From a virus (taxonomy: Duplodnaviria; Heunggongvirae; Uroviricota; Caudoviricetes), in IMG/VR virus record IMGVR_UViG_3300043447_000086: DNA of 64,000 bases. One strand, 5' to 3'. A program made the translations under genes and the position numbers. Below, one piece after another: positions 45,893 through 46,021 of this stretch. The notes under the pieces were generated by a model. That model was not told the DNA's origin and made no database searches. It worked only from the letters and a program-made list of their open reading frames with translations. The first letter of the stretch is position 1. The number at the start of each line of letters is the position of its first letter.

Positions 45893-46021
45893 TGGTGGAG
45901 ACAACGGGAATCGAACCACGTACAAGAACTTTTACAGAGTTAGAGCTTTAGTATTGCGGAAACAATTCTACAGACAGAATTGACTTTTTGCTATGCTATG
46001 CTACCATTACATCATGTCTCC
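45893..46021 (-). tRNA. tRNA-Tyr(GTA)-like gene with ~55-nt insertion between the D and anticodon arms
   Basis: Acceptor GGAGACA/TGTCTCC-ACCA; D-arm; insertion; AACT-CTGTAAA-AGTT; T-loop. Confidence 0.65.

What the first reader, a model, noticed from the sequence alone, without database searches (positions are those of the whole stretch)
45893..46021. tRNA-Tyr carrying a circularly permuted copy of the CAGCAA module
Between the D-arm and anticodon arm is a ~55-nt insert reading CAATTCT-GTCTG-T-AGAATTG-TTTCCGCAA. This is the family's 3' half followed by its 5' half, with the 7-bp stem kept (AGAAUUG/CAAUUCU). The module therefore occurs both as a closing stem around tRNA parts and as a hairpin inside a CCA-ended tRNA. 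It supports a portable protein-binding tag and suggests a chargeable tRNA tethered to the DUF2828 protein, or a tRNA split at this site.
Basis: partly seen in the sequence, partly recalled or inferred. Interest (0 to 1): 0.75.

Follow-up and report, generated by a model that had tools for sequence, protein, structure and literature searches.

The report
tRNA-shaped partner RNA of phage Ro60
A phage gene that looks like a tyrosine tRNA carries, as an extra arm, the same conserved "handle" found on the small RNAs encoded next to the phage's Ro60-like protein. It is most likely a tRNA-shaped partner RNA of that protein rather than an ordinary decoding tRNA.

Summary
Window 45893-46021 (minus strand) is a 129-nt CCA-ended cloverleaf with a GUA anticodon. 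It has a 54-nt insert between positions 26 and 27, holding a 7-bp hairpin followed by UUUCCGCAA.

- **Conservation:** 24 further distinct copies in uncultured T4-like phage contigs all keep the insert. Pairing is 98.4%, and 13 pairs show changes on both sides.
- **Circular permutation:** cut in the hairpin loop and rejoined at the acceptor ends, the RNA aligns end to end with linear "CAGCAA-handle" RNAs (score 110.5 against a null of 57±4). A profile of 24 linear members scores it 20-36 bits permuted, 9-20 bits in native order and at most 4.3 bits shuffled.
- **Link to the protein:** handle RNAs lie just upstream of the DUF2828/DUF7788 gene in 74 of 80 protein-anchored loci. The protein's model matches Ro60.
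- **Relatives:** versions with other anticodons sit beside this gene in Cronobacter phage S13, where they are annotated tRNA-Ser and tRNA-OTHER, and in Synechococcus phage BUCT-ZZ01.
- **Redundancy:** a class II tRNA-Tyr coexists wherever the array is covered.

Best reading: a Y-RNA-like partner RNA built as a tRNA. Protein binding and charging are untested. This scan had already found the handle family, and two handle-bearing tRNAs in a cyanophage, on other DNA. I rate it a new variant of a known kind.

The parts
45893..46021 (-). Whole 129-nt handle-bearing tRNA-shaped RNA (GUA anticodon, encoded CCA)
   Evidence: Sequence. 24 further distinct homologues, alignment A2. Covariation. CM R1 scores it 148.5 bits.
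46015..46021 (-). Acceptor stem, 5' strand (GGAGACA), pairing with 45897-45903
   Evidence: 5 of 7 pairs change on both sides across homologues; 99.4% of cells paired.
45998..46012 (-). D arm (4-bp stem, loop AAUGGUA)
   Evidence: Invariant in all 25 sequences. U8, A14, G18-G19 and A15/U48 fit the tRNA core (direct reading).
45983..45997 (-). 5' linker AGCAUAGCAAAAAGU. It corresponds to the A-rich run that precedes the 3' stem strand of linear handle RNAs.
   Evidence: Nearly invariant. The same GCAAAAAGU precedes the 3' strand in linear member L133:+4733. The A-rich pre-stem run is general in the family.
45963..45982 (-). Handle hairpin: CAAUUCU (family 3' strand), loop GUCUGU, AGAAUUG (family 5' strand)
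   Evidence: 7 bp, with 3 pairs changed on both sides; 98.9% paired. The YCU-G / AGR distal end is shared with linear handles.
45954..45962 (-). UUUCCGCAA, the handle's CNGCAA motif after a pyrimidine linker
   Evidence: Homologues read CCGCAA, CAGCAA or CUGCAA, rarely ending in U. 16 of 289 linear members also read CCGCAA.
45926..45942 (-). Anticodon arm: 4 standard pairs plus U.C, loop CUGUAAA, anticodon GUA at 45933-45935
   Evidence: 2 of 4 pairs covary (AACU/AGUU to CCCU/AGGG). GUA is invariant in 25 sequences.
45904..45921 (-). T arm with a bulged pyrimidine (45918) and loop UUCGAUU
   Evidence: 2 of 5 pairs covary, and only with the bulge register. The same bulged T stem occurs in the second handle-tRNA of phage S13.
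45893..45903 (-). Acceptor stem 3' strand, discriminator A, encoded CCA
   Evidence: ACCA is invariant.
45826..45887 (-). Linear handle RNA that starts 5 nt after the CCA (AGGAAGG...CAGCAA...CCUUCCU, then GUUG)
39610..39780 (-). Large linear handle RNA immediately upstream of the Ro60-like gene (leader position)
   Evidence: A handle RNA ends less than 600 nt upstream of the gene, on the same strand, in 74 of 80 protein-anchored loci.
38126..39559 (-). DUF2828/DUF7788 protein (477 aa), Ro60-like ring plus vWA domain: the presumed protein partner
   Evidence: Pfam. PHROG 850, 'RNA-binding protein'. AF2 model with pLDDT 76. Top 13 Foldseek PDB hits are all Ro60/Rsr/phage Ro60; best E 2.4e-9, TM 0.33-0.54, about 0.5 for the top seven.

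Best explanation
The element is a real, conserved RNA gene: a complete tRNA-shaped molecule with a 7-bp acceptor stem, encoded CCA, D arm, T arm and a GUA anticodon arm. It carries the 'handle' of the phage's Y-RNA-like family as a fifth arm between positions 26 and 27. The handle is a 7-bp stem with an AGR/YCU-G distal end, an A-rich strand on one side of the junction and CNGCAA on the other.

It is a genomically encoded circular permutation of the linear handle RNAs whose cargo is T arm, acceptor hairpin and D arm. In those RNAs the handle stem holds the 5' and 3' ends and the acceptor is closed by a loop. Here the acceptor holds the ends and the handle is closed by a loop.

Inferred mechanism:
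1. It is cut out of the polycistronic tRNA transcript like its neighbours, by RNase P and 3' trimming.
2. It keeps the insert.
3. Its handle arm is bound by the phage Ro60-like DUF2828-vWA protein, as Y RNA stems are bound by Ro60.
4. The tRNA-shaped body then acts as the effector or bait module of that particle. It could recruit or engage tRNA-binding proteins such as synthetases, modification enzymes or anticodon-directed nucleases. It is not the phage's working tRNA-Tyr.

Shown: anatomy, conservation, covariation, permutation homology, gene-RNA linkage and the Ro60-like fold. Inferred: retention of the insert in the mature RNA, protein binding and function.
For: 1. The insert is conserved in all 25 distinct sequences. 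Pairing is 98.4%, 13 pairs change on both sides, and 0 of 500 shuffles reach this.
2. The permuted candidate aligns end to end with linear member L133:+4733. The score is 110.5, against 59.5 unpermuted and a null of 57±4 with maximum 67.
3. An HMM of 24 linear T-Acc-D handle RNAs scores the permuted elements 20-36 bits over nearly the whole model. Native order gives 9-20 bits and shuffles at most 4.3.
4. The permuted-handle pattern occurs 38 times in 1.4 Mb against about 0.2 in shuffles. It also occurs in other CCA-ended tRNA-like RNAs, for example L128:5624-5725, which has no anticodon arm.
5. The CM finds the same architecture with other anticodon triplets: UUC, GUC and UCC and CAU. In the cultured phages Cronobacter S13 and Synechococcus BUCT-ZZ01 it lies within a few hundred nt downstream of the Ro60-like gene.
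6. A handle RNA ends just upstream of the gene in 74 of 80 protein-anchored loci, and 199 handles lie on the same strand against 12 on the opposite strand.
7. The protein model matches Ro60, Rsr and phage phiLo Ro60 over its full length.
8. Linear T-Acc-D members give sub-threshold Rfam YrlA hits of 30-41 bits, E down to 1e-5.
9. A class II tRNA-Tyr coexists in every array that is sufficiently covered, so this RNA is not needed for decoding.
10. Precedent: M. smegmatis YrlA is cut by RNase P and gains CCA (PMC4201824). A preprint on phage Bas63 suggests that some tRNA genes next to its Ro60-like gp130 may be Y RNAs (PMC11482910).
Against:
- The handle motif CNGCAA differs from the GNCGAAN0-1G / CGAA motif of described Y RNAs.
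- The candidate lies about 6.3 kb from the protein gene rather than beside it.
- An intact anticodon loop, A73, G1-C72 and an encoded CCA are what a working tRNA would have.
- Invariance of GUA among 25 sequences is not by itself significant, because 54% of columns are invariant.
- No such long handle-tRNA was found next to the gene in a Felixounavirus, so the pairing is not universal for the protein family.
Confidence: 0.58

Rival explanations
1. It is a working, aminoacylated tRNA-Tyr that decodes UAY codons. The extra arm is a tag that lets the Ro60-like protein bind, protect or deliver it, or is simply tolerated.
For: A full cloverleaf with U8, A14, GG, a T loop, U33, purine 37, the GUA anticodon, A73, G1-C72 and an encoded CCA. 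The Rfam tRNA model reaches 33.7 bits on homologue L128:5093-5218. GUC-bearing relatives carry G73, as tRNA-Asp does.
Against: There is no long variable arm, which bacterial tRNA-Tyr has. A conserved bulge sits in the T stem, where EF-Tu binds. The anticodon stem has 4 pairs plus a U.C. Class II tRNA-Tyr genes coexist in the same arrays. Relatives of the same architecture have degenerate or missing anticodon arms, or triplet/discriminator combinations that do not match E. coli identity rules (identity rules from general knowledge).
Confidence: 0.2
2. The handle is an RNA-level element that acts without the DUF2828 protein. It could be a processing or stability signal, or a portable RNA module that spreads among tRNA-array genes. 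The tRNA merely acquired a copy.
For: Handles flank many different cargoes in tRNA arrays, and most linear copies start right after a tRNA CCA with a U-rich spacer. Stem sequences differ between copies within one genome.
Against: No insert-less version of this tRNA was found. The arm is under purifying selection with compensatory changes. The whole RNA, not only the handle, is homologous to linear members. The near-obligate adjacency to the Ro60-like gene would be left unexplained.
Confidence: 0.12
3. The insert is an intron that is removed, or the RNA is cleaved in the hairpin loop to give a two-piece (split) tRNA.
For: The insert sits between two tRNA arms, and removing it would leave a cloverleaf of about 75 nt (direct reading). 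T4-like phages are known to encode RNA end-healing and ligation enzymes (general knowledge, not tested here).
Against: At 54 nt it is too short for a group I intron, and no intron family matched. It is not at 37/38, and no bulge-helix-bulge motif is evident. Conservation of handle features shared with unspliced linear RNAs argues that it functions in the mature RNA. The hairpin loop is not conserved.
Confidence: 0.05
4. It is a decayed tRNA pseudogene whose resemblance to the handle is chance.
For: Standard tRNA finders do not call it.
Against: Full-length conservation at 79-98% identity, with covariation in four helices. The pattern is enriched 38 against about 0.2. The profile scores 20-36 bits after permutation.
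Confidence: 0.02

Closest known systems
YrlA-type bacterial and phage Y RNAs bound by Ro60/Rsr (Rfam RF02553; Chen et al. 2014, PMC4201824), especially M. smegmatis YrlA
   Same: A small RNA encoded on the same strand near a Ro60-type gene. It combines a protein-binding stem, which has a conserved purine-rich motif next to its 5' strand, with a tRNA-like domain (T arm, acceptor stem, D arm, V hairpin). M. smegmatis YrlA is opened at its acceptor by RNase P and receives CCA, which gives the same topology that is encoded directly here.
   Different: The protein is DUF2828/DUF7788, which is Ro60-like only at fold level. The motif is CNGCAA, not GNCGAAN0-1G. The Rfam YrlA model does not reach its threshold. 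Here the handle is a closed internal arm, the ends lie at a genomically encoded acceptor-CCA, and a full anticodon arm is present in addition.
Thermus phage phiLo Ro60 with Yrl1/Yrl2 (PMC12135203; PDB 9KOP, 9L5Y)
   Same: A phage-encoded Ro60-fold protein with phage-encoded partner RNAs next to the gene, built as stem, internal loop with a short motif, then stem. The structure is among the best fold matches of the window's protein.
   Different: The Yrl RNAs are linear Y-type RNAs with a CGAA motif, and no complete tRNA is reported. For phiLo, binding and PNPase recruitment were shown experimentally; nothing has been shown here.
CAGCAA-handle RNA family noted earlier in this scan beside phage Ro60-like genes (e1-1835814, e1-5386695 and others)
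   Same: The same handle and the same protein family.
   Different: Those are AI notes, not published work. This report adds the whole-molecule permutation test, the Tyr lineage with 25 sequences, and the copies in cultured phage S13 that are annotated as tRNA-Ser and tRNA-OTHER.
tmRNA (tRNA-like domain with a large insertion between the D region and the T arm)
   Same: A CCA-ended acceptor and T arm with a large internal insertion. Rfam's tmRNA model is the only family that aligns to the window copy (11.5 bits).
   Different: There is no tag reading frame, no pseudoknots and no alanine identity, and the score is far below the threshold of 47. The window has its own permuted tmRNA at 12.9-13.3 kb.
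Circularly permuted tRNA genes of the red alga Cyanidioschyzon merolae (recalled from general knowledge, not checked here)
   Same: tRNA parts occur in circularly permuted gene order.
   Different: In the alga the permuted precursor is circularised and re-cut to give a normal tRNA. Here both topologies are separate conserved genes, and the junction is a conserved handle rather than a splice motif.

Membership tests
CAGCAA-handle Y-like RNAs of phage Ro60-like (DUF2828) loci | 7-bp stem whose distal end is AGR paired with YCU, followed by G | tested here: met
   AGAAUUG/CAAUUCU followed by G. AGR/YCU-G is invariant in 25 homologues. It is the commonest stem end in an unconstrained survey of linear members: AGG 90 and AGA 34 of 257, the rest mostly register shifts.
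CAGCAA-handle Y-like RNAs of phage Ro60-like (DUF2828) loci | CNGCAA 1-4 nt after the 5' stem strand, and an A-rich run before the 3' stem strand | tested here: met
   UUU-CCGCAA and GCAAAAAGU. Both features are general in 289 linear members.
CAGCAA-handle Y-like RNAs of phage Ro60-like (DUF2828) loci | The stem is formed by the RNA's own 5' and 3' ends (UUUU before it, GUUG after it) | tested here: not met
   The stem is closed by a 4-6 nt loop and the ends lie at the acceptor: a circular permutation.
CAGCAA-handle Y-like RNAs of phage Ro60-like (DUF2828) loci | Whole-length homology to family members | tested here: met
   After permutation: pairwise score 110.5 against a null of 57±4, and family HMM 22.6 bits over model positions 4-116 of 123 for the window copy.
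CAGCAA-handle Y-like RNAs of phage Ro60-like (DUF2828) loci | Same strand as, and near, a DUF2828 Ro60-like gene | tested here: met
   Same strand and same tRNA array, 6.3 kb upstream of the gene. The S13 and BUCT-ZZ01 copies lie within a few hundred nt of it.
YrlA (Rfam RF02553) | Reaches the Rfam gathering score (69 bits) | tested here: not met
   No YrlA hit on the element. Linear relatives reach only 30-41 bits.
YrlA (Rfam RF02553) | GNCGAAN0-1G motif near the 5' strand of the Ro60-binding stem (PMC4201824) | tested here: not met
   The motif here is C(C/A/U)GCAA.
YrlA (Rfam RF02553) | tRNA-like T arm, acceptor stem and D arm, encoded on the same strand within about 4 kb of a Ro60 orthologue | tested here: inconclusive
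   The arms are present and covary. The distance is 6.3 kb here but less than 1 kb in S13 and BUCT-ZZ01. The protein is Ro60-like by fold only, with no match to solved-structure sequences.
YrlA (Rfam RF02553) | Bound by the Ro60 protein | not testable with these tools
   Needs immunoprecipitation or gel-shift assays.
Canonical elongator tRNA-Tyr (bacterial type) | Called by tRNA finders or the Rfam tRNA model | tested here: inconclusive
   ARAGORN never calls it in the window or in 25 related loci. The Rfam tRNA model has no hit in the window but scores 33.7 bits on L128:5093-5218.
Canonical elongator tRNA-Tyr (bacterial type) | Long (class II) variable arm, regular 5-bp anticodon and T stems | tested here: not met
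   The variable region is 4-5 nt, the anticodon stem has 4 pairs plus a U.C, and the T stem has a conserved bulge. The class II tRNA-Tyr at 45647-45732 shows the normal form.
Canonical elongator tRNA-Tyr (bacterial type) | GUA anticodon, A73, G1-C72, CCA end | tested here: met
   Direct reading; invariant in 25 sequences.
Canonical elongator tRNA-Tyr (bacterial type) | Aminoacylated and used on the ribosome | not testable with these tools
   Needs charging and polysome assays.
tmRNA | Reaches the Rfam threshold; has a tag reading frame | tested here: not met
   11.5 bits against a gathering score of 47. ARAGORN finds only the tmRNA at 12876-13259.
Intron-containing tRNA (group I or bulge-helix-bulge) | A recognisable intron family or splice motif at the insert | tested here: not met
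   No intron family matched at E up to 5. The insert is 54 nt, lies at 26/27, and has no bulge-helix-bulge motif evident on reading.

The most novel reading that the evidence does not exclude
The full-length RNA is aminoacylated or otherwise engages anticodon-specific host factors while its handle is held by the Ro60-like ring. The phage would then build a particle that displays a genuine tRNA, and in sister RNAs bare anticodon-loop mimics. Its role could be as a decoy, sensor or repair platform against tRNA-targeting defence nucleases, or as a way to couple RNA surveillance to translation.
Probability: 0.15. Interest if true: 0.85.

Novelty: new variant of a known kind. Interest (0 to 1): 0.6.

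Why it matters
Ro60/Y-RNA particles are conserved from bacteria to humans, yet what the tRNA-like part of bacterial Y RNAs does is still open. Here a large and very abundant phage branch of the Ro60 fold has more than 7,800 protein hits in metagenomes and 706 phage records. It appears to use partner RNAs that include a complete tRNA with anticodon and CCA, carrying the protein handle as a fifth arm.

This gives a natural pair of circular permutations, which defines what the handle needs to contain. It also explains some over-long 'tRNA-Ser' and 'tRNA-OTHER' annotations in phage genomes.

Copies exist in cultured phages of Cronobacter and of Synechococcus elongatus PCC 7942. That makes binding, charging and knock-out tests straightforward.

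A preprint reports that the Bas63 gene for a Ro60-like protein counters the Ppl defence system and suggests that some neighbouring tRNA genes may be Y RNAs. I did not check whether gp130 belongs to this protein family. If it does, these RNAs may be part of a counter-defence device.

Tried and rejected
- **Whole genome:** none is held for this window.
- **Close phage relatives:** the phage collection has no close DNA relative of the array, only generic tRNA matches.
- **Insert-less allele:** a search using the same D arm and anticodon loop 1-25 nt apart found nothing in viral contigs. This is an exact-match search, so absence is weak evidence.
- **Single-sequence folding:** uninformative. The z-score is -1.2 and the MFE mispairs the tRNA core. 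The structure rests on covariation instead.
- **PDB sequence search:** the protein found nothing; only the fold search did.
- **DUF2828 literature:** only plant gene lists came up.
- **Supplementary tables:** those of Chen et al. 2014 are not held. I could not check whether any T4-like phage RNA was already listed there.
- **Felixounavirus:** CM R1 found no long handle-tRNA beside the gene in phage nataliec. In Vibrio phage nt-1 there was only an 89-nt hit, which I did not follow up.
- **Selection on GUA:** rejected as evidence, because 54% of columns are invariant.
- **Closing helix:** a 3-bp helix AGC/GCU around the insert has only one compensatory change and three unpaired rows. It stays tentative.

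Full report
**What is there.** On the minus strand, window 46021 to 45893 reads as a 129-nt RNA with these parts:
- a 7-bp acceptor stem, discriminator A and an encoded CCA
- a 4-bp D stem with loop AAUGGUA
- a 54-nt insert
- an anticodon arm with loop CUGUAAA (GUA)
- a short variable region
- a T arm with loop UUCGAUU

ARAGORN and Rfam's tRNA model do not call the element in the window. The only Rfam alignment is a meaningless 11.5-bit tmRNA match. Single-sequence folding is uninformative.

The window is a piece of an uncultured T4-like phage. It holds about 32 tRNA genes, a permuted tmRNA and, at 38126-39559, a DUF2828/DUF7788 protein.

**Is it more than chance?** Yes.
- A blastn of the element against loci fetched with a family pattern gave eight full-length homologues at 79-98% identity.
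- A scan of viral contigs for the invariant D-arm string gave 32 loci. Every homologue carries the insert; the one exception, L136, is an unrelated ordinary tRNA with the same D arm.
- On the alignment of 25 distinct sequences (A2), my hand-drawn structure is 98.4% paired. 13 pairs change on both sides, and no shuffle out of 500 reaches any of these values except the count of pair types. Sliding the partners collapses pairing to about 40%.
- The hairpin alone has three covarying pairs. Observed stems include CAAUUCU/AGAAUUG, CAAUCCU/AGGAUUG, GAAUUCU/AGAAUUC, UUAUUCU/AGAAUAA and UUAUCCU/AGGAUAA.
- The T stem covaries only if one pyrimidine is bulged. The anticodon stem has four pairs plus a U.C.

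**The family.** The window and 144 related loci hold 289 distinct linear 'handle' RNAs. Their layout is:
- UUUU
- a 7-bp stem beginning AGG or AGA
- a 1-4 nt linker
- CAGCAA (less often CUGCAA or CCGCAA)
- a variable cargo
- an A-rich run
- the 3' stem strand ending CCU
- GUUG

An unconstrained stem search in a protein-anchored sample confirms that AGR/YCU-GUU is the real consensus and not an artefact of my patterns.

The cargoes are of three kinds:
- anticodon-loop-like mini hairpins
- D-anticodon-T sets, with the handle stem in place of the acceptor
- T arm, acceptor hairpin and D arm sets, with the handle stem in place of the anticodon stem

The last kind has the YrlA architecture and gives sub-threshold Rfam YrlA hits of 30-41 bits.

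**The permutation claim.** The element keeps every handle feature that does not depend on free ends:
- the A-rich run (GCAAAAAGU) before the strand that corresponds to the family's 3' strand
- YCU followed by G
- AGR
- a pyrimidine linker
- CNGCAA

The connecting loop is variable (GUCUGU, GACA, GUAA, GAUA), as expected of a mere connector.

Three tests support the claim:
1. A pattern for this permuted handle occurs 38 times in 1.4 Mb of related DNA, against 0-1 in twenty shuffles. Of these, 31 lie in the Tyr element and 7 in other RNAs.
2. I cut the candidate in the hairpin loop and joined CCA to the 5' end. It then aligns end to end with linear member L133:+4733, in the order stem, CCGCAA, small hairpin, T arm, acceptor, D arm, GCAAAAAGU, stem. 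The score is 110.5, against 59.5 in native order and a shuffle null of 57±4. In that linear RNA the acceptor is a 6-bp hairpin with loop AAUU, exactly where the candidate has ACCA and its ends.
3. I built a profile HMM from 24 linear members, chosen only for having a T loop before a D loop. It scores the permuted Tyr elements 20-36 bits over almost the whole model. Native order gives 9-20 bits over half the model, and shuffles at most 4.3.

**Wider distribution.** A covariance model of A2 (R1) finds the same five-arm architecture with other triplets in the anticodon-like loop: UUC in L005, and GUC in L061 and L001.

It also finds it in cultured phages:
- **Cronobacter phage S13.** Two copies follow the 'RNA-binding protein' gene gp245 after one small ORF. 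RefSeq annotates them as a 121-nt tRNA-Ser and a 113-nt tRNA-OTHER. ARAGORN calls neither.
- **Synechococcus phage BUCT-ZZ01.** Two unannotated copies lie within 430 nt of the gene's end.

Some relatives have poor or no anticodon arms. Examples are the first S13 copy, the second BUCT copy, and L128:5624-5725, where the handle hairpin simply replaces the anticodon arm.

No long handle-tRNA was found beside the gene in a Felixounavirus.

**The protein link.**
- In 37 of the 119 RNA-anchored loci a DUF2828 homologue lies in the same ~10-kb piece, in many with a handle a few hundred nt upstream on the same strand.
- In an independent protein-anchored sample of 80 loci, 74 have a handle RNA ending less than 600 nt upstream of the gene on the same strand. 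Of the six without one, four have the gene at the contig edge. Same-strand handles outnumber opposite-strand ones 199 to 12.
- The AlphaFold model (pLDDT 76) has Ro60, Rsr and Thermus phage phiLo Ro60 as its 13 best PDB matches over the full length (best E 2.4e-9). vWA domains follow.
- The family is huge: at least 7,887 protein clusters and 706 phage records, including mycobacteriophage genes annotated 'Ro-like'.

**Is it a working tRNA?** That is undecided, but I think it less likely.
- *For:* the core tertiary positions, U33, purine 37, GUA, A73, G1-C72 and CCA are all in place.
- *Against:* there is no class II variable arm, the T stem is bulged, the anticodon stem is weak, and a large arm sits at the hinge.
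- *Redundancy:* the window has two other GUA genes. Every related array that is covered well enough has a class II tRNA-Tyr, though ARAGORN misses some of them.

**Comparison with the known.** Y RNAs that mimic tRNA and lie next to Ro60 genes are established. M. smegmatis YrlA is cut by RNase P and gets CCA, which yields the topology encoded here (PMC4201824). Phage phiLo Ro60 binds two phage Y-like RNAs (PMC12135203). A preprint on Bas63 reports that its Ro60-like gp130 counters the Ppl defence and suggests that some neighbouring tRNA genes may be Y RNAs (PMC11482910).

I found no description of the CNGCAA handle or of handle-bearing tRNAs. Earlier notes of this scan had already found the handle family beside this protein in many genomes, and in one cyanophage two tRNAs carrying it. 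So the element is a new variant of a known kind, not a new kind.

**Verdict.** The protein-tag reading is well supported by context but unproven. Charging is open, and the split-tRNA reading has no support.

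Noticed in passing
window 46185-46260 (-) and 46268-46346 (-): Two more CCA-ended tRNA-like genes that neither ARAGORN nor Rfam calls. Their anticodon-like loops read CUGUCUA (GUC with U37) and CUGUUAA (GUU). With the GUA element next door, this is a run of three odd G34-U35 tRNA-likes.
   Followed up: partly
window 45647-45732, 42947-43039, 45893-46021 (all -): The window holds three GUA-anticodon genes: a normal class II tRNA-Tyr, a 93-nt variant that scores poorly on the Rfam tRNA model (31 bits), and the handle-bearing one.
   Followed up: partly
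L128:5624-5725 (+): A close relative of this phage has a CCA-ended tRNA-like RNA in which the handle hairpin replaces the anticodon arm entirely. The window has unrelated sequence at the matching place (about 45088-45236).
   Followed up: partly
L146:10895-11018 and 11025-11140 (Cronobacter phage S13, NC_028773 132703-132945): RefSeq's 121-nt 'tRNA-Ser' and 113-nt 'tRNA-OTHER' just after the Ro60-like gene are handle-bearing tRNA-like RNAs. A linear-handle start (AGGAUGC..CAGCAA) follows them.
   Followed up: yes
window 42577-42635, 42807-42860, 46601-46658 (-) and many loci: The cargo of the mini handle RNAs is a 4-5 bp hairpin with a 7-nt loop of the form CUNNNAA, that is, an anticodon-stem-loop look-alike. 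Triplets vary between copies (UGU, GUU, UUU, GCU, GAU and others).
   Followed up: partly
window 42806-42859 and 46600-46657 (-): Rfam's Dictyostelium Class I RNA model gives weak hits (about 26 bits against a threshold of 41.5) on the mini handle RNAs.
   Followed up: no
window 45918 (-); L146:11025-11140: The bulged pyrimidine in the T stem is kept in all 25 Tyr-lineage copies and also in the second handle-tRNA of the distant phage S13.
   Followed up: partly
L087:2827-2902, L122:5784-5859, L128:9715-9790, L143:9453-9527 (anticodon CUA); L084:1311-1383, L120:3602-3678 (anticodon UUA): ARAGORN calls suppressor-type tRNAs reading UAG or UAA in several relatives of this phage.
   Followed up: no
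window 33850-34353 (-): The ORF matches the anti-CBASS protein Acb1 (Pfam PF23474, E 5e-24).
   Followed up: no
L087:277-1805 (-), L088, L098, L043, L031: The DUF2828 gene is interrupted by one or more stop codons in the frame I extracted from these viral contigs. This could be a sequencing error, a frameshift or recoding.
   Followed up: no
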